DNA from: Naegleria gruberi | Taxonomy: Eukaryota | Length of the DNA stretch: 64,000 nt | Strand: one strand, 5' to 3' | Assembly (NCBI GenBank): GCA_000004985.1 | Contig: GG738850.1 | Shown here: positions 1 to 56,715 of the stretch, in pieces | Layout: each line of letters starts with the position of its first letter | Numbering within the stretch: position 1 is the stretch's first letter | Position numbers and translations under genes: made by a program | The notes under the pieces: generated by a model | Told to the model about the DNA's origin: nothing | Database searches by the model: none | The model's input: the letters and a program-made list of their open reading frames with translations, nothing else

Positions 1-3000
1 CCCTTCACCTCTCGGATGTCAAATTGTTCCACAACCAAATTTTCTCTCACTACAAGTGGCATCAATTTTCATATCTTCTATTCGTGGTAATGATTATTTA
101 ACACAATCATTGAATAATTCATCATCATTAATTAGTAATAAGTGTAATTTCATCAATAATCCATGTCACTCAATTTCACATGCCTTGTCTCAGTTGAGTA
201 ACACAACATGTGTAATTAATCCTTGTACTGGATATGTATTATTTTTATTGGATGATTTATTGGATGATGAAGCAAAGAGTTGTAATTTGGAAATTCCAAC
301 TTCAATTCCAATCATGTTTTATGGAGTTGGTTCAAGTAAAAATTGGAAGTGTGTTTCGAATAGCATATTTAAAGAAGGAAATAATGTATTGTATCAGGGA
401 TTCTTTATCTCAAATGTGAAAATTAGTGGAAATTTCAATTTACGAGTTTGTTTATTGTATTTTGTAAATTCAATTGCATTTAATTTTAGATTTTCCAACA
501 AGTATTTCTTGTAAGTTTCGTTTTTTATTTCTTTTAAAATATAATTGGAATAGTACAATATTTTTTCACACTTCACAACTATTAGAAAGTGTAATTGAAG
601 AAACAAGTCAAGACATAACTTATTGGAATATAATGAGATATAGTTCTTTATCATTTCTTAGTTCTACAGTTAACAAAACTAAAATTAAGTCCTATGCTAA
701 AGTTAGTTTTTCCTCATCTAATGTCACTAGCACTGAAAGCACGACAATACTAGCAACGAGCATGTTTCTCGATTCCTATGTAATTCCATTTGCTTTAGTT
801 TTTGACTCGTTATTGGAAAGCTCAAGCTTTACGTTTGAGTGGAAAACTGCATCATGTATTACATATGACAAACAACCACAATTTGGATTTTTTAATTCAA
901 AGCTCATTAATTCAAAGATTTTTTCATTCAATTTTGGAAGATTAGTTTTGGATAATAATTTATTTACAGGTACGAGTCAAATTCTATTAAGAAACAGTAT
1001 TCCTTGTGACAAGGCAATAGATGTCACAAGAAATGTATTTGAAAGTCTTCCTGACCTTTCTACATTATTAATACAGGATACGATTGCAATTTTGCTATTT
1101 TCTGGAAATTCAATTAGAAATTTTAATGTAGCTTTTGGATTATTTCATTTTAATACCTTAGCAGTGGTTAAATTTGAAAATAATATTGTTACTGGAATGA
1201 TTATGCCACAAATTGCTCTAACAAATTCTGGACTATTTACATTCGAAAAAATTAACAATATTGCTACTTTTAATAATACTTTTATTGGTAATGTAGGATA
1301 TTATGGATCGTACTATTTTAAAGAATGTGGAAATATTTTGATTATGAATGACAAGTTTTCAAATAATAAGGCAATTATTGGAGGAGCTATTTATGATTCC
1401 AATAATGGTTTTGGTAGATCGGTCAATGTTACAAATTCAATATTTTCCAACAATTATGCAAGTTATGGAGGTGTTATTGGAACAAGTTTAGTGAATGTAA
1501 ATCTCTATTTCACTGGAAATACATTCGAAAATAATAGAGCCAAGTGGGGAGGAGCTATTTTAGCTGATATACCACCTTATTTTATGGATGGAATGTTACA
1601 ATCTAATCAATTTGTAAATAATACTATTGAATTTCAATCAGAAGAAAATAATATTGCTGGTAATCCTATATTTACTCTACTTTCACCTAATGGTACTCTA
1701 TTCTTATATCCAGGAGAATTGATTAATATAGAAGGAAGAGTAACAGACCTCTATGACAAGGTAATACCTTATAATTCAGATTTTAAAATTGATATTACTG
1801 CATCACAACCAAATGTAATGATATATAGTAGTGTGATTGCAAATCAGTTGACTAGTAAATCATTTAATATTTATTGGAAATATGGATTAGTAGGAGCTGA
1901 AACTGTTAATGCATTCTCTCAGTTTAATTTAACAATTTCAACTCGAATTCTGGATAAATCAACTTTTGGAAGAGTTATTGTAATGGTTAAGGAATGTCCA
2001 TCTGGATTCTCATTCATGAATGGTTATTTACTTGGAAATACCAATTCAAATCTATTCGAATGTTCACCCATTCCTCTAATTATGTCTCTGTCTATAGTTG
2101 GATCTTCCTTATTATTTGGATTCATTACTGTAGGAGTTCTGTGGTTGTGTATTAAAATCTATACCTCTATAAAACCATATAGAACAGCCAAGCAACAAAC
2201 CATGATGGTTCTTTCCATGCAAAAACCTCAAAATGAAATAGCAAAGAAAGTGAAAATATTCGATCAAGAATTGGAAACTAAATTAAGCAGATTATTAATG
2301 AATGCAGAAAATTATACTGTTTTGAAAAGTAATGATATGGTGGAAGTTGTTTCATTCACTTCTAATTGGGAGAAATATGTTTTAAAGATTGACAAATCTC
2401 AGAGAAGAGAAGTTCGATTGAATGAGGAATATTCTGCAGTACCGTAAGTAGTTGTTATTTTGATTTAACCTTTGATTTTGAAAGAGTTGAATTGGTTGAT
2501 ACGAATGAGGCAAAACAATTTATTGCGAATGCAGAGTATTACTTTGTTATTCCTGGTGATAATAATGAGAAAACAAGATTTTTGGGAATTGATATCAAAA
2601 ACAGATCTGTTTTTCATCCTTGTTTGATATTTAGAGGTGCAGATTTTGATCTATCTCACTATTTGTCTGTTTTTGGTCATTTTAGTAAGAGAATTGAAGA
2701 AAAAATTGATATTTTACAACAAATTGTAAGTAATATTTCTCAACCAATTGATTACTAACGTCTCGTAGGTAAAACCAATGAAATGGCTTCATTCCAATAA
2801 CATATTCCATCGCGATTTGAAACCTGCAAATATTTTTGTTTGGTGGGATGTTGGAAAGAAGCCAATTTTAAAAATTGGTGATTTTGGAGCTAGTAGCAGT
2901 AATTATGTTTTAGAAGGAACATATCCATATATAGCTCCTGAACTAATTAATGAAAATGATTTGAATGAATTAAGCATTTATCATTCTCGTATGGAGTGGT

Positions 3001-3464
3001 TTGCTCCTGCAGATGTTTATTCATTCTCAGTCATAATGTGGGACGTATTATTTGAGGACAATTCAAGATTTATCAGACATTTCAGAATGAAAAAGTATTC
3101 CAATGATGATTTCTCCATTAACATGCCAACATTGGAGATGTTACTAGAATATTGTGAAAAGGAAAATAGATTTGAACTCAACCCAAAGATAGAATTAGCC
3201 AAACAATTGGAAAATTATTTGGAAATATTCAAGAGATGTAACAGTGAGGATCCAACAAAAAGACCAACGTTTGAATTTATTGAAAAGGCATTGAATGGAG
3301 AGGTAGAGAATTGGAATTCCTATCCAACCTATTCTAGAATTAAGGAATCAATAGATGTTGACTCGTCCCATTATTATCATCGTGACAATGGTTCGAACTC
3401 TAATTTTGTTAAAATTGGATCAGATAATGAGGAGTTAATTGAAACTGAGTATACCAGATATTAA
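1..3464 (+). CDS. Receptor-like protein kinase, 5'-partial. Extracellular right-handed beta-helix (Pmp/PbH1-like repeats), one TM helix, cytoplasmic kinase domain. Exons about 1..510, 554..2443, 2485..2725, 2769..3464.
   Basis: The frame is open to the window start. Donors GTAAGT at 511, 2444 and 2726 with AG acceptors at 552-553, 2483-2484 and 2767-2768 restore one reading frame across three ORF-track pieces. Ectodomain repeats include GGAIYDSNNG, YGGVIGTS and WGGAILAD, with many NxS/T sites. TM segment is IMSLSIVGSSLLFGFITVGVLWLCIKIY. Kinase motifs are YVLKI (beta3-like), HRDLKPANIF, DFG and YPYIAPE. No GxGxxG loop was found. Confidence 0.6.
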
Positions 3465-3610
3465 GCTTATAAAATGTCTGACTTGATCTGTGAAGTTCCT
3501 TCAAATTATTATAAACGTGAGAATTAGCCTTAAATACAAGGGTATTTTCATGCTCAATAAGGTGGCCCACGCATATTAAGTTTAAGGGTTATTGAAAATT
3601 ATTGAATGTA

Positions 3611-3683
3611 GCCCGTCTAGCTCAGTCGGTAGAGCGCAAGGCTCTTAACCTTGTGGTCGTGGGTTCGACCCCCACGGTGGGCG
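3611..3683 (+). tRNA. tRNA-Lys(CTT): tRNA-Lys (anticodon CTT), 73 nt, no intron
   Basis: GCCCGTCTAGCTCAGTCGGTAGAGCGCAAGGCTCTTAACCTTGTGGTCGTGGGTTCGACCCCCACGGTGGGCG. The cloverleaf is canonical with A and B boxes, anticodon loop gCT-CTT-AAc, and T-loop GGTTCGA. A T-run (TTTTGTTTT) lies immediately downstream as a Pol III terminator. Confidence 0.95.
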
Positions 3684-3846: not shown

Positions 3847-5174
3847 ATGAAACGACGAGCAAGTAGGAATAATCTGCAAGACAATAAAAAAGTGGAGACT
3901 CCTAAAAAGAGTACACCACCAGTAGTAGTGGATAATATTTCGGATCAGGCTTTATCAGAGTCAAGTATAAAAGCAATACAAAAATTAGCTGGACAATTAG
4001 CGAGCGGGAAGAAACTTTTATTTGTGACTGGAGCAGGTATTTCGCAAATATCAGGTAAATATTTATTATAATTGATGGATACGAACTGTTTTGGAATTTT
4101 ATATTGGATATAAATTATTTTGAAATTAATTTAGGAATTCCAACATATAGAGGAGATGCCAATTCAATTTGGTCGAATCATATTCTTGATATGGGTACTA
4201 GGAAAATGTTTCAAAGGGATGAATTACATTGGTACAATTCATTTTGGTTGACAACCCATCACAAGAGAGAATATTTTGTTGCCAAACCAAATGAAGGACA
4301 TTTAGCTATTGCGAGATTGAGTAAATTATGTAATTTGAGATGTATTACACAGAATATTGATCATTTACATTCAAAAACATCTCTATCACCATCCCATATA
4401 ATAGAGGTTCATGGTAGATTAGGTCTTTATAAGTGTATTAATTCTAGAAAAAAGAATCCTTGTCCATATGCCAAAACACATAGTATTGATACAGTACAAT
4501 TGGAAAAGCATAGTAATGATTATCATCAAAATAAGCCCACTTTTACCATCAAATCAGTACCAAAATGTCCCTTCTGTAAAACTCTTCTCCTTCCACAAGC
4601 CCTCTTATTTGATGAGAAATATGAATCACATGATTTTTATCAATGGAGAAAAGCACTGCAATGGATTGCTGATTGTGAAGTCATTTGTTTTGTAGGAACA
4701 TCATTTTCTGTAGGTGTTACAGCTGAATGCTTGTCAATTGCCAAGGACAATGACAAAACCCTCTACAATTTTAATATTAGGGTAGATAAGGAGGTTAAAA
4801 ATCTTCCAGGAATGTATCATATTGTAGGAAAATCTGAAATTTCACTTCCATTCTTATTTAATACATTGGTGGAAATTGGGAAGAGTCAACATTTATCTCA
4901 CAAGCCACGAATGCACTTTTATTCGAGCCAATATTCAAGTACACACAAAGTGGTGAAAAGAACTAATCTGAAAAGACTACAAAGAAACAGTAAAGTCATT
5001 CACAGTGATGATGAGCAACAGCAGCCTGTTGAAGAGCATGAATATGATAGTGACCATGAGAGAATCTCTAAAAAGATCAAATTCAAGGAGTACTCTTCCA
5101 GTGATGATGGTGCTAGTTCTAGTGAGGAAGGAGAAACTGAGGAAGAATTTGACGATTCCGATGAGGATTATTAA
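3847..5174 (+). CDS. Sir2-family NAD-dependent protein deacetylase (sirtuin), 2 exons: 3847..4054 and 4135..5174
   Basis: Exon 1 ends ...FVTGAGISQIS with donor GTAAAT at 4055. Acceptor TTTAG ends at 4134. The splice regenerates GAGISQISGIPTYRG, the GAGIS..SGIP.FR Rossmann motif. QNIDHLH and a CPYA...CPFC zinc ribbon are present. The tail is acidic and S/E/D-rich. Confidence 0.8.
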
Positions 5175-5435
5175 AAGAGCATGCTATAGAAACAAATATC
5201 TGAACCACACTACAGTAAGCTTTGTAAACAACTCCAATTTCCTTATAGTAACATTGCCAATCTCGCTAAAATTTCTGTTTTTAAATTTTCCACAAGCAAT
5301 TGCCCGGAGCGAGTTGTGTTTCTTCGCGCTGATTATTTTAAAGCAAAAGAACCAAAAAGAAGTGAATCTTAACAATTTTTCAAACTCAAAAAAAAGAGAA
5401 GCAAACAACAAACACATACAACTTTCATAACAAAA

Positions 5436-6629
5436 ATGCAACAAGTTCATTTATGGCTCCGTGATGAAGTTAAACCATTCGAACAACGTACAGCTTTGAC
5501 TCCTTCCGATGCTGAAAAGTTGATCAAGGAATTTAATTTTAAAATTACAGTTGAAAAATCTGTTACTCGTGCCTTTGATGATGAAGAATATGTTAAAGTT
5601 GGTTGTCAATTAGTTGAATCAAATTCATGGATTACTCAAGCACCAAAACTTGAAGAAAATGATAATTTCTATATTTTGGGATTGAAAGAATTACCACTCG
5701 GAAATACTCAATTAGGTGATATTCAAGTTCCACACTTACTTTCTCAACGTCATATTTTCTTTGCTCACTGTTTCAAGAGACAATCTGATTGGAAAGATAC
5801 AATGAGTAGATTTGTTCAAGCTGAACCAAGACCAGGTCAAATTCTTGACTTGGAATTCCTTAATTTAGATAATGGTAGAAGAGTTGCTGCTTTTGGTTAT
5901 GCAGCTGGTTTTAATGGAATGGCAATGGGTTTACTTACTTATTGTAAACAAAAATTACATTCAAACGATTTGGAAGTTTTGAATGAAATTGTTAAACCAT
6001 TCAAGAATAGAACTGAACTTGTTAATCATATTAAGGATTTACTTTCTAAATTAGATCATACACCAAAATGTTTAGTTTTAGGAGCATTGGGTAGATGTGG
6101 AAGTGGAAGTGTTAAATGTGCTGAATTATGTGGAATTCCAGAAAGTCATTTAATTAAATGGGATTTGAATGAAACCAAAGCAGGTGGACCATTCCCACAA
6201 TTATCAACAGATGTTGATATTCTAGTTAATGATATTTATTTGAGTGGTGAAATTAAACCATTCTTAACAATGGAAATGGCACAAAAAGGTGATCGTAGAA
6301 TGAGTGTTTTCATTGATGTTTCATGTGATGTTACAAATCCATTCAATCCATTCCCAATTAATAATCAAGTTACAACATTTGATAGACCAGTTAGAAGAGT
6401 TGATAATACTAATAATCTTCCATTAGATGTTATTGCAATTGATCATTTACCAACAATGACTCCACAAGAATCATCAGATGAATTCTCAAATGCTTTGGTT
6501 ACTTATTTGGCTGAATTGAGAAATGTTAATTTTTCAAATGAACAAGGTGAAACTGAAGGTATTAGAGTTTGGTTACGTGCAAATCAATTATTTGAAAAGA
6601 AAGTTCAAGAATTTAAACAAGAATTGTAA
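5436..6629 (+). CDS. LYS1: Saccharopine dehydrogenase (NAD+, L-lysine-forming), LYS1-type, single exon, 397 aa
   Basis: N-terminus MQQVHLWLRDEVKPFEQRTALTPSDAEKLIKEFNFKITVEKS is co-linear with fungal Lys1 and with the animal LKR domain. The alanine-dehydrogenase/PNT-like fold is uninterrupted. Confidence 0.8.
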   Translation: MQQVHLWLRDEVKPFEQRTALTPSDAEKLIKEFNFKITVEKSVTRAFDDEEYVKVGCQLVESNSWITQAPKLEENDNFYILGLKELPLGNTQLGDIQVPHLLSQRHIFFAHCFKRQSDWKDTMSRFVQAEPRPGQILDLEFLNLDNGRRVAAFGYAAGFNGMAMGLLTYCKQKLHSNDLEVLNEIVKPFKNRTELVNHIKDLLSKLDHTPKCLVLGALGRCGSGSVKCAELCGIPESHLIKWDLNETKAGGPFPQLSTDVDILVNDIYLSGEIKPFLTMEMAQKGDRRMSVFIDVSCDVTNPFNPFPINNQVTTFDRPVRRVDNTNNLPLDVIAIDHLPTMTPQESSDEFSNALVTYLAELRNVNFSNEQGETEGIRVWLRANQLFEKKVQEFKQEL

Positions 6630-6758
6630 ATTGCTATAAAAAAACATTAAAAAACCTTTTGAAAATTATCCAAATTCATTTTAATATGTTGCTGTCAAAT
6701 GTTCTTTCACCACTCTCATTTCAAATCCTTGTCAATTATAAATTCCATAAGATAAAAA

Positions 6759-9656
6759 ATGTCTTTTAATCAATTATTACCTCCCACACTAAAACCTAGA
6801 TCCTACAGTGCTACCAATTCTAAGAATGCTACACCTACTTCCAATACACCACTTTCACCTGTCATTACCATTGAAAATGATTCATCATCATTACCTTCAT
6901 CATCATCACAAGCAATGAATCAACAACATCAATCTAATACTACCACTACCACTACTACTACTCAACAACAACAACAACCAACTAGTGCACGTACAGGTCA
7001 TCGTCGATTACCCAGTTCCTTCCTATTACCTTCTACAGCAGCAGGAGTAGGAGGTGCAACTTCATCATCTTCACTTGCTATTTCTCCACTAACAGGTGCA
7101 AGTGCAAGTGTATCATCATCATCATCATCATTGAATAATAACAATTTATTAATGTCCAGTGGAACACCACAATCACCCTCTCCTAATACTACCTCCATGA
7201 TGATGATGTATCACTTTAATACCTCATCCAATTCTCTACTAGTTGGTACACCAGGTAGTACAACAACAAGAACAAGAACACCCAACAGTCCTCCAACCAA
7301 CAACAGCAACAATAATAATTCAACAGCATCACTATTAATTCATCAAGGTAATAGTAGTAATGTTGCAGGTGTTGCAGGTCAACAACAACAACAACAACAA
7401 CAACAACATCATCACTTTGTTCCTCCACTCATTCCACCAGTCTCTTTCAATGCACTATTCAATAATAATAATAACAACAACAACTCGACGGAAGAAAATA
7501 ACAAAATGATGAATGCTGGTGGATCATCATCAATAATTGGTCCACAACAGAGTGGTGGAATGACAACATCATCAAGTAGTGGAAATTTACTTTCCAATTC
7601 AGCAGGTAATTCATCATTTCAAAATCCAATTTCACACAATGTTGAATACTATCATGCTCATATGGCCATGTTTATAAAGAAAAAGTTTGAGGAAGAGGAG
7701 GAATATCTAATGTATTCATATCCGAATGAAATATCATCTCCCAATATACATATTAGATCATTAAAGGAATTGAGAGGTACATTACACTCTGTATTTGGTG
7801 AATGTAATGATATATTGAATGAACAAGTTAGATTTTGTTATTTAACACCAACTGGAAAGAGTGTTTCATCATCGTGGTGGAATGTTCATTCTAATACTAC
7901 TAATACTACTAATACTAATAGTGGCACAAATCATAATCCATTATCATCTGCATCCTCTTCTCATCAACATCAACATATTCATCAGGGTTCCATTGATAGC
8001 ATTTCAAGTCCAAATCAATCGACACCACTTCCATCATCTGTAAATTCAGCAACTTCTGCACTTCCTAATACTGATACCATTAATTCGACAAGTTCAATTC
8101 ATCATCATCATCAATCCATTCCATCCAATATATCATCATCCAATAATCCTACTATTACTACTACAATTGGTGTTAATGATACAATTTCACAAAAACCATC
8201 TCTATTAGAATTTTTACAAGAAAGTAAAAAGATTGAAAATGCAACAGAATTATCAAATGTTATTCAATTGAGAGAAACTATTGAAAAGAATAAGAGACCA
8301 CTTATTGTAACATACAAAATATTGAAACAGTATATATTTTTATTATATTTACCAATTCCAACTGATTACAATTATGGAAATGTAATGAAATCAGTTTATG
8401 AACAATATGTAAATGAATTATTTGAATTTTTAGATTTTATTTATCAAGATGTTGAAGAAATTATTACAAATATTTCAGATTATCAAAGTCAATTAGATAC
8501 AATATTTAATAGATTTTTTGAAATGGTATTTCATGATAGAGATTTTAGTTTTGTAAATAGTTTTCAAGATGGTTTTGTTAAATTTCAACCTTCTTTTCAT
8601 ATTTCTCAAACTATTGATGCTGAATTATCAAATTTAGAAACAATTATGAAAGAAGATTGTTTTAATATTGGAACTTGTTTAATTTATAAGGGTTTATTAC
8701 AATTATCTCATTTACCTAAAAATATTACAAAACAAGTAATTAGATATTTAACACATTTTAATATTATTCATAGAGCTCAAGATTCACCTGAAATGGTTAT
8801 TATTGAAAAGGTTTTTATTAAGGAAAATTCAAATCCTTTCGATTTATTAACAATTAATGAAACATCAGGTGATAATGGTTATGATTATTTATTATCTGTT
8901 ATTACTCAAGGTGAAAAAGTAATGTGTAGTGTTTTATATGCAAAGAGATATCCACAATCTTATTATGAAGGTGATTTATATTATGTTGATGAAATGAGAA
9001 CTTGTTTATTACAATTAGAAAAGAAGGGAATTTTTAGTCAACTTAGAGGTCAATTTAAAACTTCACATTCTTTAGCTAATGTTTTTTCAATTCCAACTGT
9101 TTCTGTAACTGCAAATACAGAATCATCAAGAGATAGTACAAGTGGTCTAGTTGGCTTAGGAAGTTTTACTTCAAATAGTTTTTATGGATTTGGACTAACA
9201 AATGATCATACAAGTCCAACAAGTTCTAATACTTCTAGTTCTTCTAGTAGTAATTCGAGTAATGAAACAATTATTGGATCTAACATGAAACATTTCGTCA
9301 CACAAGGACCTTACAATGTCTTGTTAGGTTATGTTGTCCATTCAAATTCGAATGGTGTAATTTTATATCATAATAGCAGTAATCCAGCTATTGCATCAGT
9401 TTTTTCTCTGAAATGTCAAGTTGTTAGACAAGTATTACAAAGTAAGAGATCAATGAGTGATGACCCTATCGTAGAATTTGGTATTCACATTGATCAGAAG
9501 GTGCCACTTCCAAACAATACTATTGGACATATTGGATATTGGATTTGTGGTAGAATGAATGATATGCTGGATGAATTTTATGTTTGTTATGAAGATTCTA
9601 TTCCTCAAGATGTTGTGGAATTATCTTATAGATTGTACAGTAGACTTTACATTTAA
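6759..9656 (+). CDS. Hypothetical protein, 965 aa. The N-terminal ~450 aa is S/T/N/Q/H-rich low complexity and the C-terminal ~500 aa is globular, possibly a tri-longin-type fold.
   Basis: Long uninterrupted ORF with the codon bias of neighbouring genes. It contains poly-T, poly-Q and poly-N runs. The C-terminal half has non-repetitive composition. The longin assignment is a guess from secondary-structure-like periodicity only. Confidence 0.45.
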   Translation: MSFNQLLPPTLKPRSYSATNSKNATPTSNTPLSPVITIENDSSSLPSSSSQAMNQQHQSNTTTTTTTTQQQQQPTSARTGHRRLPSSFLLPSTAAGVGGATSSSSLAISPLTGASASVSSSSSSLNNNNLLMSSGTPQSPSPNTTSMMMMYHFNTSSNSLLVGTPGSTTTRTRTPNSPPTNNSNNNNSTASLLIHQGNSSNVAGVAGQQQQQQQQQHHHFVPPLIPPVSFNALFNNNNNNNNSTEENNKMMNAGGSSSIIGPQQSGGMTTSSSSGNLLSNSAGNSSFQNPISHNVEYYHAHMAMFIKKKFEEEEEYLMYSYPNEISSPNIHIRSLKELRGTLHSVFGECNDILNEQVRFCYLTPTGKSVSSSWWNVHSNTTNTTNTNSGTNHNPLSSASSSHQHQHIHQGSIDSISSPNQSTPLPSSVNSATSALPNTDTINSTSSIHHHHQSIPSNISSSNNPTITTTIGVNDTISQKPSLLEFLQESKKIENATELSNVIQLRETIEKNKRPLIVTYKILKQYIFLLYLPIPTDYNYGNVMKSVYEQYVNELFEFLDFIYQDVEEIITNISDYQSQLDTIFNRFFEMVFHDRDFSFVNSFQDGFVKFQPSFHISQTIDAELSNLETIMKEDCFNIGTCLIYKGLLQLSHLPKNITKQVIRYLTHFNIIHRAQDSPEMVIIEKVFIKENSNPFDLLTINETSGDNGYDYLLSVITQGEKVMCSVLYAKRYPQSYYEGDLYYVDEMRTCLLQLEKKGIFSQLRGQFKTSHSLANVFSIPTVSVTANTESSRDSTSGLVGLGSFTSNSFYGFGLTNDHTSPTSSNTSSSSSSNSSNETIIGSNMKHFVTQGPYNVLLGYVVHSNSNGVILYHNSSNPAIASVFSLKCQVVRQVLQSKRSMSDDPIVEFGIHIDQKVPLPNNTIGHIGYWICGRMNDMLDEFYVCYEDSIPQDVVELSYRLYSRLYI

Positions 9657-9706
9657 TTTCCCCAATAAACTCTTTAATTTATTCAAACATCTTCTAGTTC
9701 AACTAC

Positions 9707-12694
9707 TTAAAAACGAATGGCATCCTTTGTCAAACTGTTTACAATGTGAAGAATGAGCTTGATGGTCTTGATATCACTTGGCTTACCACGTTCAAGAATG
9801 ATTGGATGTTTAGCAGCCAAATGTTCTCTAATACCTTCCAAGATTGGAGCTGAAAATTGGGAAATGGCTGGATCAATTGGGTTGATATGAATAATAACTC
9901 TTTCCAACCAAGACAATTTAACATCAGTTTGTTCAGTAATATCATAAGCCAATTGTTGAACAAGGGTAAGAAGGATTGGTTGAGAAATTGGAATATCAAC
10001 TTCAAACAAACGTGGATCAATAACACTACACAACCAAACTAATAAACGTAAATCAGCCTTTTCCAAAACAAGTGAGAAAACTTCCTCAAATCTTTGGTTT
10101 TCAACCAAGTTCAAAAGTTGCTCCTTGGAAATGTCTCCATTATTATTGCTTGTATTTGTTGCTGTTTGTTGAACAGCTGGCATGTTTTGAGCAACATTCT
10201 TCAATTCTTGTCTGATAGCTTCAACAGTTGAATCATTGACTTCCTTACAGTATTGCTTCAATGGTGATTTAACCAATTCATCCATTCCTCTTTCAAAGGT
10301 CTTACTAATTTGTTCAAACATTCTTCTGCATGATGTTTCAAATGAAGGAAGAACTGTAGACTTGAGAACTGTTTGGAAACTATCTTGGATAACCTTCTTA
10401 ATAGATCCTGAATCAGAAGTATCAGTCAATGATTGGGTAAGAGCGTCATTGACAACATCAGACATGTTATCGGTGAGTGAGTCAAGAACAGATTGAGAAA
10501 TTTCATCTGGTAAATCATTAGTAATGGCAGAAGAAATAGTTTCAATCAACTCCTTTTGTCTAGTTCTTTCTTCAGAGAGTCTTGTCAATCTTTCCTTTTC
10601 AATACGCTTGTAAAGTTGTTCATATTGTCTTTCAGTTTGGGTTTGAATCATTGTTTCCATTTGAGTAAGAATGCTTCTTTCCATTCTCTTCAATTCAGAA
10701 ATGAGTTCAAAATTAGAACCACTAGAAGCAGGTTGAGTAGGAGTGGCTTGAGGAACAGATGGATTAACTGGTGGAATAATATTTGGAGATTGACGAATAG
10801 CTACACCAGTATTAGTATTAGCAACAACAATTTCCTTTGAAGAGCTTGGTTGGTGGACTAAATCTGGCATTGGAATTGCAGTTTTAACTTGTTGGCTTAG
10901 AGCACAAATTTGGAAGTTTCTAATATTCAACAAGTGAATACCACTGGTTTGTAAACAGAATAAACCAAAGTTAATACCAATAGTCATAGCAACAAGACTA
11001 ACAATTGGATATCTACAATCAAATTCAGTGATGAAATCAAAATGTGGATGATCTTCTTGTTCAGTCAAAGGTGTCTTGTTTAAGCGAAGAGTGAACAATA
11101 CTGGATATTGCAAATTTGAAACAAACAAAGCAGATGCTGTAGAATCAAGTTCAACATTATTGATAGAAACCTTTTCATCAAACTTTTCAGAGGTTTCTGG
11201 TCTAATTGATACTTGTTGAACAAGTTCAATGTCCAACTTTGGTGATAAATACCACAAACAAATATCAAAATTGTTTTGTGAAGATGTAATAAAGTATCTT
11301 TCAATATTAGTCTCAGTGCCTGAGCAAAATTGGATATTAATCAATTCGTTATTGTAAATATTGGCTGATTTTACAAGTGTCATGTTTGTTCTTCTATCCC
11401 AAATGTAAATATTACCAAATGATGAAATGCAGGCAAGATACTTTCCATCACTAGAGAAAGATAAATCGGTAATTGATTCATTTTCAGCAAACTCATTAGA
11501 CAATACACGAATACCACGCATAGTGTGAATATTATCATTATCTAATTCAATCAAGTTGTTATACATTGCTAATTGATCAACATCAAGCAAAATTAATTGG
11601 TTATCACTAGTAATAGCACATAACTCCTTATCTGATTGTGGAGCCCACAAAATTCTTCTAAAGAATCTATGTGATTGATCAGAAGAAAATGTTAAATGGA
11701 CCAATTTAGCATATCCTACTTGATCTTCCTTAGGGTTTCGTAAATCGTTTGGATGGATTTTTTCATCAGTTTCAATAATTTTCCACACAATCAAAGATCT
11801 ATCTCTAGAAACAGATGCCAATTTCAAATTTACAGAACATTGTAAATCGGATACATATTGTTTGTGTCCCTTCAAAAATACTTTCTTTCCAACCTTTCTA
11901 CTAACAACACGAATAGCTCCTCCTTTCAAACTCCAAACCATATAGTCATCCAAAATTCCTATACATTTACCATTTGTGAAAATTTGGTCGCTTACATAAG
12001 GTGTAATACCTTTAATACTGGCCAATTGTTTTCTTTCTTTCTTAGCATCAAGTGAGGATGTCACGTAGGTATAAGCCTTCTTATCAATTGGACCTGTAAT
12101 GAATGGATCAATCATAGATTGTGGATTTGTTACATATTTTTGTATGGAGGAAGAAGATGGAGAGGTAGAACCATTATTAATTACATTGCTGCTTGATAAA
12201 CTTGTTGGGGAATGGGAAGGTGAATTATTATTAACATCAACTTCAGATGGAGAAGTTGGGGAAAGTTGTGAAGTATTAGCTTGATTTAATATATACTCGG
12301 TTCTAGCCTTGTGAGAACTAATTGGTTTAGATTCTGGGACTGGGGTATCTTGTCTTGTAATTGTATTTCCGCTAACAGTTGTATTAGTGGTAGGTGGAAT
12401 TGATTCTTCTGATGGTGGTGTTGATTGTCCATTGTTATTTTGTAACTTTTTAATTTCTTCAAGAATTTGTGATTCATCAAACATTCCTCCTTCTCCCATC
12501 ATAACCATTGAAGGATCCATCATCATGTGTGGATATGGTTGCATAGGTTGCATTGGTTGCATTGGTTGCATAGGATGAGGTGGATAGGCGAACATTGGAG
12601 TTTGATGAGGAAGTTGTTGTTGTGGCTGCGATGTTGTATTTTGTTCATTAGCCATTTGAAGGCTTTTTAAAAGATCTGTTGGTAATTGATTCAT
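9707..12694 (-). CDS. WD40 beta-propeller protein with a Met/Pro/Gln-rich N-terminus, Ser-rich linker and helical C-terminal domain. The architecture resembles EDC4/Ge-1 (enhancer of mRNA decapping 4).
   Basis: 995-aa single ORF. It has a PMQPMQPMQPMQ repeat, a WD-repeat region (LIVWKI, GHKQYVSDLQ and similar), a coiled-coil segment (ELKRMERSILTQMETMIQTQTERQYEQLYKRIEKERL) and then an alpha-helical tail. It lies convergent with the upstream gene, whose stop is 50 bp away. Confidence 0.45.
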   Translation of the reverse strand: MNQLPTDLLKSLQMANEQNTTSQPQQQLPHQTPMFAYPPHPMQPMQPMQPMQPYPHMMMDPSMVMMGEGGMFDESQILEEIKKLQNNNGQSTPPSEESIPPTTNTTVSGNTITRQDTPVPESKPISSHKARTEYILNQANTSQLSPTSPSEVDVNNNSPSHSPTSLSSSNVINNGSTSPSSSSIQKYVTNPQSMIDPFITGPIDKKAYTYVTSSLDAKKERKQLASIKGITPYVSDQIFTNGKCIGILDDYMVWSLKGGAIRVVSRKVGKKVFLKGHKQYVSDLQCSVNLKLASVSRDRSLIVWKIIETDEKIHPNDLRNPKEDQVGYAKLVHLTFSSDQSHRFFRRILWAPQSDKELCAITSDNQLILLDVDQLAMYNNLIELDNDNIHTMRGIRVLSNEFAENESITDLSFSSDGKYLACISSFGNIYIWDRRTNMTLVKSANIYNNELINIQFCSGTETNIERYFITSSQNNFDICLWYLSPKLDIELVQQVSIRPETSEKFDEKVSINNVELDSTASALFVSNLQYPVLFTLRLNKTPLTEQEDHPHFDFITEFDCRYPIVSLVAMTIGINFGLFCLQTSGIHLLNIRNFQICALSQQVKTAIPMPDLVHQPSSSKEIVVANTNTGVAIRQSPNIIPPVNPSVPQATPTQPASSGSNFELISELKRMERSILTQMETMIQTQTERQYEQLYKRIEKERLTRLSEERTRQKELIETISSAITNDLPDEISQSVLDSLTDNMSDVVNDALTQSLTDTSDSGSIKKVIQDSFQTVLKSTVLPSFETSCRRMFEQISKTFERGMDELVKSPLKQYCKEVNDSTVEAIRQELKNVAQNMPAVQQTATNTSNNNGDISKEQLLNLVENQRFEEVFSLVLEKADLRLLVWLCSVIDPRLFEVDIPISQPILLTLVQQLAYDITEQTDVKLSWLERVIIHINPIDPAISQFSAPILEGIREHLAAKHPIILERGKPSDIKTIKLILHIVNSLTKDAIRF

Positions 12695-18852: not shown

Positions 18853-21800
18853 ACTACAAAAAATGTCTCAACCAAGTCCTGTAAGTGATTGTATAATTTG
18901 AATCAATTGTTGTATTAATGATGATCGGATTCAATAAAGAGAAATCAAGATACAATTTCTAGTTCAATCATTTTGACAATTATTGGAGAAGGAGAATTTA
19001 AAGTAATAATTGATGATCGTTCTTTTTTAAATGAATTTAATCAATCACAACCACAACCACAACAACAACAACAACAATTATCATCATCAATAAATGAAGA
19101 TGAAAAGAAAAAGAAGAGAAAATCATTTTCTCAATCATTTTCAGAATCATTTACTCAAGTTTTACATCAAACTACTTCTGGAATTACAAAAGGATTATCA
19201 ACTTTTACTTTTAAAACGAGACATGTTCAATTGAGAACAAATGAATTATTAATTTATGCTGTTAAAGGTTTGTTTTAATATTTGTTTTTAATAATAATTA
19301 AATATTTTATTACAATGAATTACAATAAAAAAATAGATAATTCCAAAAATAGAAAATTAAAAGCTAACATTTCACTTATCAAGGCAATAGTTAGTAAAGA
19401 TACACTTTACAAAAATTGTATTCGTATTGAAACTCAAGATAAAATTGTTCATATTCAAATAGATTCAGAAGATACAAGACAAAAATGGTTAAAATCAATT
19501 ACAGAACAAACACAAATTCTATCGAAAAGAAAAGAAGAAAATATAATTGCATCACTCTCTTCAAATTCTTTAATTTCATTAGACAATGAATATACTATTA
19601 ATAATATTAATAGTGGTGGTAGTAGTGAACAATTATTTAATAACAAATCATTGAGAGGTTCAATTGTTGATAGAGAACATGAGGAAACAAGTGAAATGAT
19701 TCAAAATTTTATTAATGAACTAAATAATTTGGATCCTAAAAAGTATTTTAATCCTGCATCAAATTTAAGTTCAAATCCTTCATCTTCTAAAAGACGTCAC
19801 AACAAGTTGAAAAGTTTAACTGAAATTTCAGGATTAAATAATGATTCACTTCATGGTATTAAATTTACTAAAAATGATGATTCTAATAATAATAATAGTG
19901 GTAATAATACTAATAATAAGAATAATGGTGAAAATAATGAACAAGATAATGGTATTTTAAAAGATAATGATCAAGATTTAAATAATCATGTTAAAGATCA
20001 ATTATCAATTTTAACAAGTGAATTTTCACATTTGAATAATTTTACATTTATAGGTGGATTAGCCCATTTAACTTTAATTGGTAATAGAATTATGGAAAAG
20101 GCATCTATTCAAGTTAATACTCAATCAATTTTAAACATGTCAGGTGGTTCACAAATATTAAAACAAGGTTACTTATTAAAAGCAGGTCCAAATTCACATC
20201 AACCATGGAAGAAACGTTATTGTGTTTTAACTGAATCATGTGAATTTAGATATATGAGTAAAATTGGTCAATCACCAAAAGGTTTATTTTCATTACAAGG
20301 TACTTGGGCATCACGTATTAATAGTAATGATATTGATGATAATGATGATATTGATATTAACAATGATATTAAGAATAATACTAATAATAATACTATTACA
20401 AATAATTCAAATAATAATAATAATAATACAAGTATAGATTCAGATACAAATCATAATGATGAAAATTTCAATGAACAATTTTTAAATATTCATTCAAATT
20501 CATATCAATTTCAAATTGAAACAAGTGAAAGAATTTATAAATTTCAAGCACCTTCTTATCAATCTTTAAAAAGTTGGTTAAATTCACTTGAACAAGTTGG
20601 TTGTAAAGTTAAAATTGATGAAAATGATGGAATTGTAAAAACAGGTTATTTAATGAAAGAGAGAACAACTAATCATTGGAATAAGAGATTTATAACACTG
20701 ACGGAATCTAATGAATTAAAATATTATGGAAAAAACAAATCAAATCGTTCCTTAAAAGGTACTATTCAACTTGAAGATTCTTATATTACTAAAATTATTG
20801 AAAAATATGAACAACAAAATATTGTAACAAGTACAATTGAATCTTTAACTGATACTATTATGTTAACTAATCATCATACTTTCAATAATAATTCTAATAA
20901 TACTAATAATAATAATAATAATAGTAATAATGGTAATAATAATAATTATATTATGAAATATAAATTTAAAATTCATACACCTGAGAGAAATCACATATTT
21001 GAAGCTGAAAATGAAATGGAACTTGATCATTGGATTCAAATAATTTCCAAATATGGTTCAATTCAAAGAAATGAAAATGATCCAAAACCAATTTTTAAAA
21101 ATCGTCTCGCCAAATACTATCTCAAAACAACAGAACAAGTTATTTTGGAAAGACAAGAAAAGCTACAGGAATACATTGTTAGTGAAGATAGTTTGAGAAG
21201 TAAATTGGAGAGAAATAAGAATAATGCTTCATTTAGATTAAATAATTCAAGTTTTCTTAGTAGTAATAATACTAGTTCAATTAGTATTCATTCAAATAAT
21301 GTTTCAACCAATGCCATGAATAATGGAGGTGGTGATAATAATCAACATCATCAATTATTAACAGTTCAAACAGCAACTGGAAATTATAGAAAACAACGTA
21401 ATAGTAGAGCTTATTCTAAATCTGAAACAAGTTTATTGAATCATCATTATAATCAAACAAAGAGTTTATTGAATTTGAAACCAGGTGAAACACCTCCACC
21501 ACCAACAAGTCCAACATTTTCTCTATTATCATCAATTTCACATAATGATGAACATAATCATTCTAATCATTTAATATCACCTTCATCACCTTCATTGAAT
21601 GTTTCATTGATTGCACATGTTCCAGAGGATGAATTTATTTCAGATGATGAAATTGATGAAAATCTTGATATTCAAGTATTGAAAATTGAACCAATTGAAA
21701 AATACATTCCAAATACTAATAATAATACTAATAATACCACTATCACTACCACTACTACTACTAATAATAATAATAGCAGTGAACAACAAGTGGTTGTTAA

Positions 21801-23505
21801 TACTACTGCTGTTGAATTACAACAACCATCAATTGTTATTGAAAATAGTGATGATGATAAACAATTAATTGTAAATAATGAAAAAGTACCTTTACAATCA
21901 TTAACAGTATACTCACATAATAATATTGGTGTTAGTGATTCATCAGATGAATTCCAAATTATTGTTGAAGATTTAACAATGAATGAACATGAAATTGAAA
22001 CTATTAATAATATTGATAATACTGATAATATGAGTGATAATATTTCAAATAGATCTTTATCTCAACAATATTTAACTAATGATGATGATATGAATGATAT
22101 GAATGATAATCAACCATCTCAACAATATGATTCAACAAGTGAATTATTAGTGAATCAAAAAACTCATCAACATGATTCAATTGATATTCAAATTGAACCA
22201 CCATTAAATGATGAACATTCCAATGAAATGGAAATTGATTATTCCTATAATACATCAAATCCAATTCAAAGTCAAGGATATTATACTAGTTATCAAATAA
22301 TACCCAACTTGAAACCATCTATTGTAATAGATAATGGATCAGGTATATTAAAATCAGGATTTGCTAATCAAGATTTTCCAATTTGTGTTTTTAATAACAT
22401 GATTGGTCGATTGAAACAATATTCAGCAACGAGAGGTGTTGGAATTGGAGGAATGAGTGGAATGGGTGGAATTGGAGATCAAGGTAAAAAATTATATTTT
22501 GGAGATGGAGCTCAATCATTGAGAGGTGTTTTACAATTATCATATCCAGTTGAAAGAGGAATTGTAAAGAATTTTGATGATTTTGAAATGATGTTACAAT
22601 ATACTCAAGATTGTTTAAAATTGGAAACATTTAGTGAAAATCCATTATTAATAACTGAATCAACAATTAATCCAAAACAAAATAGAGAAAGAATTACACA
22701 AATGATGTTTGAAACATTTGATGTACCATATCTATATATGGCTAAATCACCTGTTTTATCTTTATTTGCACATGGTTATACAACTGGTTTAGTTTTAGAT
22801 TCAGGTGATGGTGTTACACATACTGTTCCAATTTATGAAGGTTATTCTTTACCACATGCTGTTCAAAGATTAGAACTTGCAGGTAAAGATTTAACAAATT
22901 ACATGTTAAATTTATTGAATCAATCTGGTCAATCAAAACCATTTCAATCTCAAAATTCTTCATCTCATATTGAAATTGTTAGATGTTTAAAAGAAGATTT
23001 ATCTTTTGTTAAATCATTTAATGATTCACATAATTCATCATCATCAAATACTATTAACAATAATAATTCTTCATCATTACAAGTTAATTATGATTTACCA
23101 GATGGTACAAGTATTAAAGTTGGAGAGGAAAGATTTAAATGTCCAGAATTATTATTTAATCCATCAATTGTTAATGGAGGAAGTGAAATGTTGGGAGTTC
23201 ATGAATTATGTAAAAAAACAATTTATGAATGTGATATTGATTTGAGAAAGACTTTGGCTTCAAATATTTTCCTTTCAGGTGGTTCAACTAAATTTAATGG
23301 ATTTCAATCAAGATTACAAGATGAAATACAAAATTTATTACCTTATTCTAATAAGGTTAAAGTTAAAGGTTCGAAAGATGTTCAATTTTTACCATGGATT
23401 GGTGGTTCAATCATTTCAAAGATTTCACGTTTCCCTTACGATTGTATTAGTAGACAAGAATATGAAGAAACAGGTCCATATTATTGTCATGTTAAATTTA
23501 TGTAA
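18853..23505 (+). CDS. Multi-domain protein with three PH domains plus a C-terminal actin-like domain (about 1500 aa). Exons: 18853..18870, 18940..19267, 19337..23505.
   Basis: ATG at 18853 gives MSQPSP, then donor GTAAGT at 18871 and acceptor AAAG ending 18939. PH1 is split by a 69-nt intron (donor GT at 19268, acceptor ATAG ending 19336), which restores ...LLIYAVK-D-NSKNRKLKANISL...DTRQKWLKSITEQ. PH2 is GYLLKAGPNSHQPWKKRYCVLTE..., PH3 is GYLMKERTTNHWNKRFITLTE...DHWIQIIS. The actin fold begins SIVIDNGSGILKSGFANQDFPICVF and includes LDSGDGVTHTVPIYEGYSLPHAVQRLELAGKDLT, DLRKTLASNIFLSGGSTKFNGFQSRLQDEI and WIGGSIISKISRF. Confidence 0.75.
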
Positions 23506-55468: not shown

Positions 55469-56715
55469 TTGATGAAATATATCTTTGAAAAAACAGGATA
55501 TATTTATCCAATTAATCTACCTAGTATTCATAATGCTGGAACTTATTATAGAACTAGTTTAACAAGAGTTTTGCCAAAACCTTGTTATCTATATCTTCAA
55601 AGAAAAGAAGAGATTCCTTATTTGGAACTAAGCAAGATTAAAGACTTTTATGAGCAATTGATTTTACAAACAAGCGAAGAATCAAGAATGAAGGAATTAA
55701 AATTCAAATCTGAAACTTTTCAAAAAATTTTCCCAACTTTATTATTTGGAGATGAAATAGTGATTGAAAATAATTTTGTAGATATGTTATTTAACATTAC
55801 AACAATTAATGATACAACTGTTAAGGTTAATCAAGTTAAGTGCAAAGAAGACACAAAACAACTATTCAAAACATGTTCTGTTCTGTGTCAAAGAGCATGA
55901 TATTATTACTGAAAAGTATCTGTTCAGAGCTCAAACTCTCCCTTCACACTGATAGCTCATTGTTGAGAGATGTGATTCCTTTACCTCTAATGGAAGAGAT
56001 TCGTTTCAAGATCTTGGTAAGTATTTAAGTTGAATTATTATCTTCAAGTATTATCCAGAGAAATCATGTCAACAAAGTTTACTTGGTTGAAAAGAAAGTC
56101 AATGGCAAATGGAAAAAAAAGGAAATAATTAAAGTTTGTAAAAGTGAGGCTGCATTGCAAAAAGAGATGTTATATGGACATTCATCATTTACTAATGCTA
56201 ATCACAAACTTATTGGTATTCCATACTATGAGTCGATTAAAAAACTAAAGTCAAACGAAAGAGAAGCTCTTTTGAATATGGCCATTGAACAAGATTTGCT
56301 CCACATTTCTAAACTTGTTCATTGCGATTTAAAACCAGACCATATTGTTATAGATCCATTGAGAGATACTGGATTTAGATTATTGGATTTTGAGTTTGTT
56401 GTTACGGAAGGTGATGAGGTCATTGGCTACACAAAAGGATATCATCCTCCTGAATATGATTGTCTTGAAAATCAACAATATGCAATTGCATCAAGGAAAT
56501 CAGATGTTTTTTCACTTGGTTTGTGTATGCTCCACTTTATGAACAATGAATTCATTCCCAATAGATTAGAAATACCAGATTATTTAAAGGTAATTGAGGA
56601 CATACTTTTGAGGGATGTATTAACTCAAATGCTTGAATTGGATTGCTCAAGGAGATTATCAGATGCTTCAGATATTGTTACAATGCTAAAAGATGATATC
56701 AATCAATTTCCTTAA
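55469..56715 (+). CDS. Protein-kinase-like gene, multi-exon, with a degenerate N-lobe and no Gly-rich loop. The last two exons are about 55930..56028 and 56069..56715.
   Basis: Donor GTAAGT after ...EEIRFKIL at about 56021 and acceptor CCAG ending 56068 join to RNHVNKVYLVEKKVNGKWKKKEIIKVCK (beta3-like VCK). HCDLKPDHIV replaces HRD. LLDFE replaces DFG. HPPE occupies the APE position. Upstream exon structure is unresolved. Confidence 0.45.

What the first reader, a model, noticed from the sequence alone, without database searches (positions are those of the whole stretch)
1..3464. Receptor-like kinase with a beta-helix ectodomain and no glycine-rich loop
A single reconstructed gene, running off the 5' edge, encodes a long extracellular region built of GGAI/GGVI/FxxN beta-helix repeats with many N-glycosylation sequons. 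One TM helix follows, then a kinase domain with intact HRDLKPANIF, DFG and APE but no recognisable GxGxxG. Pairing a pectate-lyase-type beta-helix ectodomain with a kinase is uncommon. The degenerate N-lobe raises the question of whether it binds ATP.
Basis: partly seen in the sequence, partly recalled or inferred. Interest (0 to 1): 0.6.

Follow-up and report, generated by a model that had tools for sequence, protein, structure and literature searches.

The report
Naegleria membrane kinase with beta-helix ectodomain
A gene of the soil amoeba Naegleria gruberi encodes a membrane-spanning protein with a bacterial-adhesin-like beta-helix outside and, inside, a protein kinase that keeps its catalytic residues but has no glycine in its ATP-clamping loop; the gene is real and already deposited but unstudied, and it is an unusual version of a familiar kind of receptor.

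Summary
Window 2-3464 (+) is one four-exon gene, open at the 5' edge. From Met197 of my model onward its product is identical to GenBank XP_002681365.1 (Naegleria gruberi NAEGRDRAFT_63325, "predicted protein").

Two metagenomic strain variants show the introns evolving as non-coding DNA and the exons under purifying selection.

N-glycosylation sequons are not enriched (10 seen, 13.5 +/- 3.3 expected). None of the 243 nearest Pmp-repeat relatives carries a kinase, and no paper I could search mentions this gene or this domain pairing.

My best reading is a lineage-specific surface sensor or adhesion receptor. Whether the kinase is active or a pseudokinase remains open. Toxoplasma WNG kinases show that a kinase can work without a Gly-loop. 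It is a new variant of a known kind, of moderate-to-low interest.

The parts
2..510 (+). Exon 1 (partial; the frame is open at the window edge). It encodes a Cys-containing N-terminal part of the ectodomain, aa 1-170 of the model. It is absent from the GenBank model.
   Evidence: 0 stops in 170 codons, against 6-21 in the other five frames. Codon-usage score is 0.25 bits/codon, as high as the annotated exons.
511..553 (+). Intron 1, 43 nt, GTAAGT...AATAG.
   Evidence: Removing it joins frame 2 to the frame of the 657-aa ORF 474..2447. It has the same size class and donor sequence as the other two introns. No comparative or transcript evidence is available for it.
554..2443 (+). Exon 2: the rest of the ectodomain, the TM helix, the juxtamembrane region and the start of the kinase N-lobe.
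   Evidence: A single ORF. It is identical to XP_002681365.1 from nt 633 on.
645..1706 (+). Predicted right-handed parallel beta-helix (approximate span, aa ~201-554).
1323..1625 (+). Four contiguous Pmp-type coils (aa 427-527), with GGAI, GGVI and GGAI each followed by FxxN.
   Evidence: All 122 HMMER hits fall on this region. Pfam Chlam_PMP scores 18.4 bits, below the 20.6 cut-off.
2070..2162 (+). Single transmembrane helix (aa 676-706), oriented N-terminus out, C-terminus in.
   Evidence: It is the only 19-residue window with mean hydropathy above 1.8. K/R count is 0 before and 4 after the segment.
2295..2321 (+). Position of the glycine-rich loop. It reads LMNAENYTV and contains no glycine.
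   Evidence: It aligns to the IGxGxFGxV columns of 49 kinases. In the AF2 model it is the beta1-turn-beta2 element, pLDDT ~71-73. No G-x-G occurs in any frame.
2376..2390 (+). YVLKI, the candidate beta3 'VAIK' lysine (K781 of the model, K585 of XP_002681365.1).
   Evidence: It aligns to the Y-A-x-K column and is predicted as strand 44-49 of the cytoplasmic model.
2444..2484 (+). Intron 2, 41 nt.
   Evidence: The same junction is used in the GenBank model. Strain variant L001 differs at 4 positions within these 41 nt.
2485..2725 (+). Exon 3: the rest of the N-lobe, the hinge, alphaD and alphaE.
   Evidence: Against L001 it carries 3 synonymous and 1 non-synonymous difference. Codon-usage score is 0.27 bits/codon.
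2726..2768 (+). Intron 3, 43 nt, with a TACTAAC-like branch site.
   Evidence: L001 has a 1-nt deletion plus 3 substitutions here. L002 has 6 deleted nt plus 2 substitutions. The frame-breaking indels are tolerated, so the segment is non-coding.
2769..3464 (+). Exon 4: the catalytic loop (HRDLKPAN, 2808-2831), DFG (2880-2888), APE (2934-2942), DVYSFSVIMW (3012-3041), RPTF (3261-3272), the C-terminal tail and the TAA stop.
   Evidence: Against L001 there are 4 synonymous and 1 non-synonymous difference. Against L002 there are 9 synonymous and 12 non-synonymous codons, 5 of the latter in the tail.

Best explanation
This is one Naegleria gruberi gene, NAEGRDRAFT_63325. Its public model is truncated at the N-terminus. 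It encodes a type-I single-pass membrane protein.

Shown here:
- An extracellular right-handed beta-helix, whose best-preserved coils are of the Pmp (GGA[ILV]/FxxN) adhesin type.
- One transmembrane helix.
- A divergent cytoplasmic eukaryotic protein kinase whose fold resembles TKL/TK kinases. It keeps the catalytic loop, DFG, APE and a candidate beta3 lysine. Its beta1-beta2 loop contains no glycine.

Inferred:
- The beta-helix binds a surface ligand, as Pmp adhesins and polysaccharide-binding beta-helix proteins do. A prey or substrate polysaccharide or glycoprotein is the most likely ligand.
- Ligand-driven clustering changes the state of the cytoplasmic domain.
- That domain relays the signal by phosphorylation, using a non-canonical way of holding ATP.

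I consider retained but weak or atypical kinase activity somewhat more likely than complete loss. My reasons are that every residue needed for phosphotransfer is kept, the domain is under purifying selection, and Toxoplasma WNG1 shows that a Gly-loop is not absolutely required.
For: Gene integrity and identity.

Introns non-coding and exons constrained: strain variant L001 has 8 differences in 84 intron nt, against 9 (7 synonymous) in 1000 exon nt. L002 has 9 synonymous and 12 mostly conservative non-synonymous codon changes in exon 4.

Topology.

Kinase: Pfam 72.3 bits. The motifs are located. AF2 gives pTM 0.74 with C-lobe pLDDT 80-95 and a beta1-beta2-beta3-alphaC N-lobe. The Foldseek top hits are B-Raf, FAK and FGFR2 (E ~1e-9, TM-score normalised to target 0.6-0.67). 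K781 sits in the VAIK column.

Precedents: an active kinase without a Gly-loop is described in PMC6442604. GGA[ILV]/FxxN motifs as beta-helix coils and mediators of adhesion are described in PMC11166332, PMC10715098 and PMC2997323.
Against: - No transcript or protein evidence was available.
- The N-terminus and signal peptide lie outside the window and could not be recovered.
- Pfam Chlam_PMP is below its cut-off, and Foldseek found no significant match for the ectodomain model.
- About 70% of the ectodomain model has pLDDT below 70.
- N-lobe pLDDT is only 46-73. The beta1-beta2 hairpin may be imposed by the alignment of canonical kinases used as input.
- The loop carries an acidic residue (E) where glycine normally contacts the ATP phosphates. 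In several human pseudokinases this kind of change goes with loss of nucleotide binding (my own knowledge, not tested here).
- No ortholog was found outside N. gruberi-like strains, so long-term conservation cannot be assessed.
- The ligand, the cellular location and the substrates are all unknown.
Confidence: 0.55

Rival explanations
1. Pseudokinase receptor. The architecture is the same, but the Gly-free, acidic beta1-beta2 loop prevents productive ATP binding. The cytoplasmic domain then signals only as a scaffold or allosteric partner of another kinase, as HER3 or plant pseudokinase RLKs do.
For: All three loop glycines are replaced (M, A, Y) and a Glu sits in the loop. The N-lobe is the least confidently modelled part and has inserts at cytoplasmic residues 55-70 and 87-108. 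Pfam matches only profile positions 86-256. The same window holds two other kinase-like genes with degenerate catalytic motifs, so degenerate kinases are not rare in this genome region.
Against: The usual residue criterion for a pseudokinase is loss of the beta3 Lys, the HRD Asp or the DFG Asp. That criterion is not met: K781, D896 and D918 are all present, as are the catalytic-loop Asn and APE. A domain that no longer binds ATP has no obvious reason to keep all of them. WNG1 is active without a Gly-loop (PMC6442604).
Confidence: 0.33
2. Mis-joined model: the ectodomain ORF and the kinase ORF are separate genes, and the proposed introns are not spliced.
For: No transcript data were examined. 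Exon 4 begins near an ATG (2778) and was called as a stand-alone 228-aa ORF by prokaryote-style gene callers on metagenome contigs.
Against: Exon 2 runs without a stop from the ectodomain through the TM helix into the kinase beta1-beta3 region. A stand-alone exon-4 product would be a C-lobe with no N-lobe. The frames join exactly across canonical 41-43 nt introns. The introns accumulate indels and about 10x more substitutions than the exons. The GenBank model makes the same joins.
Confidence: 0.03
3. A young, lineage-specific gene that is decaying or functionless.
For: No ortholog or paralog was detectable beyond about 94-98% identical strain variants. The Pmp coils are degenerate. The N-lobe is degenerate.
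Against: The gene has 1111 codons without a stop in DNA of about 29% G+C. Codon usage is like that of conserved genes. Synonymous changes are in excess in the kinase exons of two independent variants, and the reading frame is intact in both.
Confidence: 0.05
4. A membrane-tethered enzyme: the beta-helix is a polysaccharide lyase or hydrolase rather than a binding module.
Confidence: 0.04

Closest known systems
Pmp-repeat (Pfam PF02415, Chlam_PMP) right-handed beta-helix surface proteins: chlamydial polymorphic membrane proteins and the 'polymorphic outer membrane repeat' or adhesin-like proteins of methanogens and other prokaryotes
   Same: GGA[ILV] and FxxN tetrapeptides recur every 27-29 residues as coils of a beta-helix. 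45 of the 46 nearest relatives belong to this family, and the named ones among the nearest are methanogen proteins from Methanobrevibacter and Methanomicrobiales. A heterolobosean relative, Percolomonas, also has Pmp-repeat proteins.
   Different: Only about 4 recognisable coils are present, and Pfam scores below its cut-off. There is no autotransporter barrel or cell-wall anchor. The helix is instead followed by a eukaryotic TM helix and a kinase. None of the 243 retrieved Pmp relatives has a kinase.
Single-pass transmembrane Ser/Thr/Tyr kinases of protists (TMKs; Yin et al. 2023, PMC10463195)
   Same: The layout is ectodomain, one TM helix, then a cytoplasmic ePK domain. The ectodomain is lineage-specific. 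That paper reports that about 40% of protist TMK non-kinase regions have no Pfam annotation and about 70% of the annotated domains are specific to one grouping.
   Different: No beta-helix or Pmp ectodomain is mentioned in that paper's main text. Its supplementary tables were not available. The Gly-free loop is not a described feature of those kinases.
TKL-group kinases, e.g. B-Raf (closest solved structures)
   Same: These are the best Foldseek matches over about 320-340 columns. phmmer matches B-Raf over cytoplasmic residues 122-240. The C-lobe signatures DVYSFSVIMW and RPTF are of the TKL/TK type (my own knowledge of kinase subdomains IX and XI).
   Different: Identity is only 17-18%. E-values are about 1e-7 to 1e-9, and CAMK-group kinases (DCLK1, Rad53) score equally well by sequence. 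No group assignment is secure. B-Raf has a canonical Gly-loop.
[quoted passage not shown]
   Same: These are protein-kinase-fold enzymes that lack the Gly-rich loop yet keep HRD, VAIK and the DFG aspartate. WNG1 is catalytically active, with Km(ATP) about 0.5 mM.
   Different: WNG kinases are secreted soluble proteins of a distinct clade. In them beta1 and the loop are replaced by a helix, and DFG is DFE. Here the model keeps a beta1-turn-beta2 hairpin and a normal DFG. No sequence relationship was seen.
Plant RLK/Pelle receptor-like kinases
   Same: Overall receptor logic: a solenoid-type ectodomain, one TM helix, and a Ser/Thr kinase with an HRDLKxxN loop.
   Different: Plant RLKs are not among the closest kinase hits; the plant proteins listed are MAP kinases or unnamed. 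The ectodomain type is different. Membership of that monophyletic family was not shown.

Membership tests
Eukaryotic protein kinase superfamily (Pfam PF00069) | Profile score above the curated cut-off | tested here: met
   72.3 bits against 31.7, E = 5.6e-20, but covering only profile positions 86-256 of 263.
Eukaryotic protein kinase superfamily (Pfam PF00069) | Catalytic loop HRDxKxxN, Mg-binding DFG, and APE | tested here: met
   HRDLKPAN is at aa 894-901, DFG at 918-920 and APE at 936-938. These fall in invariant or near-invariant columns of a 50-kinase alignment.
Eukaryotic protein kinase superfamily (Pfam PF00069) | beta3 lysine (VAIK) and alphaC glutamate | tested here: inconclusive
   K781 (YVLKI) aligns to the A-x-K column and lies in a predicted strand. 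The Glu partner could be E74 or E83 of the cytoplasmic numbering.
Eukaryotic protein kinase superfamily (Pfam PF00069) | Glycine-rich loop GxGxxG between beta1 and beta2 | tested here: not met
   LMNAENYTV occupies the loop columns. No G-x-G occurs in any forward frame of 2001-2900.
Pseudokinases (residue criterion: loss of the beta3 Lys, HRD Asp or DFG Asp) | At least one of the three catalytic residues missing | tested here: not met
   All three appear to be present, so the protein is not a pseudokinase by this criterion. Nucleotide binding itself cannot be tested with these tools.
Pmp repeat family (Pfam PF02415, Chlam_PMP) | Profile score above the curated cut-off | tested here: not met
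   18.4 bits against 20.6, with one repeat at aa 493-507.
Pmp repeat family (Pfam PF02415, Chlam_PMP) | Alternating GGA[ILV] and FxxN motifs at coil spacing, and homology to family members | tested here: met
   Three GG[AV]I motifs at aa 446, 475 and 502, each followed by FxxN. The coil HMM scores 19.0 and 15.1 bits against a shuffle maximum of 6.4. The best HMMER hit has E = 7e-19, and 45 of 46 top hits are PF02415 proteins.
Pmp repeat family (Pfam PF02415, Chlam_PMP) | Right-handed parallel beta-helix fold | tested here: met
Chlamydial Pmp autotransporters (type V secretion) | C-terminal autotransporter beta-barrel | tested here: not met
   The C-terminal half is a TM helix plus a kinase, and no autotransporter family scored in Pfam.
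Plant RLK/Pelle (IRAK) family | Kinase domain groups within the RLK/Pelle clade | not tested
   No phylogeny was made. The nearest sequence hits are a mixture of protist kinases, PKR-like kinases and plant MAP kinases, with no named RLK. The nearest structures are B-Raf, FAK and FGFR.
WNG kinases | Loss of beta1 and the Gly-loop replaced by a helical extension; DFE in place of DFG; coccidian secreted proteins | tested here: not met
   The model keeps a beta1-beta2 hairpin, DFG is intact, and the organism is a heterolobosean. The features of the family are taken from PMC6442604.
Type-I single-pass membrane receptor | N-terminal signal peptide | not testable with these tools
   The 5' end lies outside the window. 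The GenBank protein is not on record in the contig index, and JGI metagenomes hold no copy.

The most novel reading that the evidence does not exclude
The protein is a catalytically active receptor kinase that holds ATP without any glycine in its beta1-beta2 loop. That would be a second, independent solution to Gly-loop loss besides the coccidian WNG kinases, and one that keeps the canonical hairpin. It would be coupled to a Pmp-type beta-helix that senses bacterial or substrate polysaccharide, making it a previously undescribed class of prey- or surface-sensing receptor in Heterolobosea.
Probability: 0.15. Interest if true: 0.55.

Novelty: new variant of a known kind. Interest (0 to 1): 0.3.

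Why it matters
If the kinase is active, it would show that a canonical-looking ePK can do without the Gly-rich loop. Apart from the Toxoplasma WNG family, that loop is regarded as indispensable. Such a result would give pseudokinase research a natural test case in which only the loop is lost.

The Pmp-type beta-helix ectodomain would add an adhesin or polysaccharide-binding module to the known sensor domains that eukaryotes have fused to kinases. That bears on how a bacterivorous amoeba recognises surfaces or prey.

In practice, the work shows that the public N. gruberi model XP_002681365.1 is truncated at its N-terminus. The value is limited because this is a single orphan gene without detectable orthologs, and protists are already known to hold many lineage-specific transmembrane kinases.

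Tried and rejected
1. The whole-protein word-index search returned one irrelevant hit. Low-complexity words swamped the candidate list.

2. The full-length self-hit never appears in representative searches. The 915-aa GenBank protein is filed under a 228-aa metagenome fragment as cluster representative.

4. Upstream extension failed three ways. The exact look-up of the GenBank protein found no contig. A look-up of the neighbouring saccharopine dehydrogenase ORF found none. Two JGI metagenome scans, with the N-terminal 169 aa and with exon 4, found no relatives.

6. The AFDB50 library, wanted to find Naegleria paralogs by fold, was not available.

7. The paralog idea was rejected within the window. 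tblastn of the protein against the window finds only itself. The two other kinase-like genes at 56.1 kb and 59.8 kb share only 31% identity over 55 aa.

8. Sequon enrichment was rejected.

9. A hidden exon carrying a Gly-loop was rejected.

10. Literature searches for the gene identifiers, for Chlam_PMP with kinase, and for Naegleria with Pmp found nothing relevant. The supplementary tables of the protist TMK survey were not held.

11. Limit on the paralog question: the kinase-domain homolog search collected only 1782 candidates, so the absence of N. gruberi paralogs from that list is not evidence that none exist.
Full report
ORGANISM AND GENE. The window is AT-rich eukaryotic DNA (22-33% G+C per 2-kb window) with short introns. 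The exon-4 ORF (2778..3464) sits in a 90%-identity protein cluster that also contains XP_002681365.1 / EFC48621.1 / UniProt D2V3E1. That entry is annotated 'predicted protein [Naegleria gruberi]', locus NAEGRDRAFT_63325, 915 aa. I joined exons 2-510, 554-2443, 2485-2725 and 2769-3464 across three GTAAGT...AG introns of 43, 41 and 43 nt. This gives 1111 codons plus TAA, open at the 5' edge of the window. From Met197 (nt 633) to the end, my model is letter-for-letter the GenBank protein. No paper in the searchable library mentions the locus tag or its accessions.

IS IT ONE GENE? Three lines of evidence say yes.

First, exon 2 is one uninterrupted ORF. It encodes most of the ectodomain, the transmembrane helix and the first ~95 cytoplasmic residues. 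The structure model places kinase strands beta1-beta3 in those residues. The fusion of ectodomain to kinase is therefore independent of the introns.

Second, two metagenome contigs carry strain variants of the locus. L001 is 97.8% identical over 2381-3670, and L002 is 96.2% identical over 2654-3464. Against L001, the 84 intron nucleotides carry 8 differences, including a 1-nt deletion. The 1000 exon nucleotides carry 9 differences, of which 7 are synonymous. Against L002, intron 3 has lost 6 nt and has 2 substitutions. Exon 4 has 9 synonymous and 12 non-synonymous codon changes. Those are mostly conservative, and five of them lie in the tail beyond the kinase domain. Frame-breaking indels are tolerated only in the proposed introns, and the exons are under purifying selection.

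Third, codon-usage scores trained on ten Pfam-supported ORFs of the window are positive only in the model's frame for every exon: 0.16-0.27 bits/codon, against negative values in all other frames.

The same test shows that exon 1 (2-510), which the GenBank model lacks, is coding. It scores 0.25 bits/codon with 0 stops, against 6-21 stops in the other frames. The public model is therefore N-terminally truncated, and the true start lies upstream of the window. I could not recover it.

ECTODOMAIN. GG[AV]I occurs at aa 446, 475 and 502, each followed by FxxN. Pfam's Chlam_PMP repeat scores 18.4 bits, just under its 20.6 cut-off. An exhaustive HMMER search of exon 2 against 1.84 billion representative proteins gave only 122 hits at E <= 1e-3. 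The best was 7.2e-19. Every hit fell on one stretch, roughly aa 390-530 of the model. Of the 46 best hits, 45 carry Chlam_PMP and 20 carry Beta_helix. The two of the ten best hits that carry names are methanogen proteins (Methanobrevibacter, Methanomicrobiales); the rest are unnamed, mostly metagenome proteins. One hit comes from Percolomonas, another heterolobosean, but the similarity is at repeat level only.

The beta-helix claim therefore stands, but only about four coils are recognisably Pmp-type. The membrane-proximal ~115 residues and exon 1 remain unassigned. The 'many sequons' are a composition effect: 10 observed against 13.5 +/- 3.3 in shuffles.

MEMBRANE TOPOLOGY. There is one hydrophobic segment, aa 676-706. 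It has no K/R in the 15 residues before it and four in the residues after it. That fits an N-out, C-in orientation. A signal peptide could not be checked.

KINASE. Pfam Pkinase scores 72.3 bits but matches only profile positions 86-256. HRDLKPAN, DFG and APE are intact. In a MAFFT alignment with 49 kinases, YVLKI falls in the VAIK column and LMNAENYTV falls in the IGxGxFGxV columns. No G-x-G exists in any forward frame between the TM helix and the catalytic loop, so a missed exon does not explain the absence.

The AlphaFold2 model of the cytoplasmic domain has pTM 0.74. The C-lobe has pLDDT 80-95 and the N-lobe 46-73. It shows beta1 (residues 13-19), a three-residue turn, beta2 (23-28), beta3 (44-49) and alphaC (73-81), with low-confidence inserts. 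The hairpin may partly reflect the canonical kinases in the input alignment. Foldseek's best PDB matches are B-Raf, FAK and FGFR2 (E ~1e-9, TM-score normalised to target 0.6-0.67, 17-18% identity). By sequence, CAMK-group and TKL-group kinases score alike. I regard it as an unclassified ePK with a TKL-like C-lobe (DVYSFSVIMW, RPTF).

Apart from the strain variants, the best homolog had E = 5e-8 over the C-lobe only. That search scored only 1782 candidates, so paralogs elsewhere in the N. gruberi genome are not excluded.

HOW RARE IS THE PAIRING? None of the 243 Pmp-repeat relatives retrieved has a kinase motif or matches the kinase domain. The 120 best profile hits list only PF02415, PF13229 and accessory bacterial domains. 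Full-text searches for Chlam_PMP with kinase, and for Naegleria with Pmp, found nothing relevant. A cross-kingdom survey of transmembrane kinases reports that protist ectodomains are largely lineage-specific and about 40% lack Pfam annotation. Its main text does not mention beta-helix or Pmp ectodomains (PMC10463195), and its tables were not available. The pairing is therefore undescribed as far as I could search, but the general phenomenon is well known: domain shuffling onto a single-pass kinase.

MECHANISM. Shown: the gene structure, the purifying selection, the Pmp-type coils, the predicted beta-helix, the TM helix, and the kinase fold with catalytic motifs and a Gly-free loop.

Inferred: Pmp motifs form beta-helix coils and mediate adhesion in chlamydiae (PMC11166332, PMC10715098, PMC2997323). 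Most structural neighbours bind polysaccharide. The ectodomain is therefore most plausibly a binding module for a surface glycan or protein of prey or substrate. Clustering would then be read out by the cytoplasmic domain.

Whether that read-out is phosphorylation is the open point. For activity: the beta3 Lys, HRD Asp, catalytic Asn, DFG and APE are all retained; the exons are constrained; and Toxoplasma WNG1 phosphorylates substrates without any Gly-loop, with Km(ATP) about 0.5 mM (PMC6442604). Against activity: all three loop glycines are replaced and a Glu sits in the loop; the N-lobe is the most divergent part; and WNG kinases compensate with a rebuilt N-lobe and basic residues, which is not evident here. 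I put active-but-atypical at about 0.55 and pseudokinase at about 0.33.

VERDICT. The feature is a real, already deposited but uncharacterised N. gruberi gene. Its public model is truncated, its ectodomain-kinase pairing appears undescribed, and its kinase is unusual in lacking only the Gly-rich loop. It is a new variant of a known kind (protist single-pass transmembrane kinases). As an orphan gene without orthologs or experimental handle, it is of moderate-to-low interest (0.3).

Noticed in passing
window 56083-56715 (+): A second kinase-like ORF (Pfam Pkinase 41 bits). Its catalytic loop reads HCDLKPDH and it has DFE in place of DFG. It shares only 31% identity over 55 aa with the finding's kinase. 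The DFE recalls the WNG kinases' DFE, but this was not examined.
   Followed up: partly
window 59767-60117 (-): A third kinase-like ORF (Pfam Pkinase 63 bits). It reads HNNLKPDN, with no catalytic Asp, and has DLE in place of DFG, so it looks like a pseudokinase. The ORF covers only part of a gene; neighbouring exons were not assembled.
   Followed up: partly
window 19282-23505 (+): A 1407-aa ORF that combines PH domains (aa ~293-591) with a complete actin domain at the C-terminus (aa 1012-1406, E = 5.8e-102). This is an unusual PH-actin fusion.
   Followed up: no
window 2-632 (+): The GenBank model XP_002681365.1 starts at an internal Met (nt 633). Exon 1 plus the start of exon 2 add at least 196 coding residues upstream and run off the window, so the public protein lacks its N-terminus and any signal peptide.
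   Followed up: yes
window 3611-3683 (+) and 60808-60879 (-): A tRNA-Lys(CTT) gene lies 147 nt downstream of the kinase gene's stop codon. A tRNA-Met(CAT) gene lies near the other end of the window. The 3' flank between the stop codon and the tRNA-Lys carries indels in strain variant L001, while the part of the tRNA that L001 covers is identical.
   Followed up: partly
window 31278-35153 (-): A 1291-aa ORF with no Pfam match at E <= 1e-5. Several other ORFs of 230-576 aa between 45 and 55 kb are equally unannotated.
   Followed up: no
window 4104-12694 and 40699-42312: Neighbouring genes are ordinary eukaryotic housekeeping or regulatory genes. They include a Sir2-family deacetylase, a saccharopine/alanine-dehydrogenase-type enzyme, an Inturned-like longin-domain protein (consistent with a flagellate life stage), an EDC4/Ge-1-like WD40 protein and an RWP-RK protein. 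There is no cluster of related receptor genes around the finding.
   Followed up: partly
protein database behaviour: The 915-aa N. gruberi protein is stored in a cluster whose representative is a 228-aa metagenome ORF (exon 4 only). Searches of representatives therefore cannot return the full-length protein. Eukaryotic multi-exon proteins may be systematically hidden this way.
   Followed up: partly
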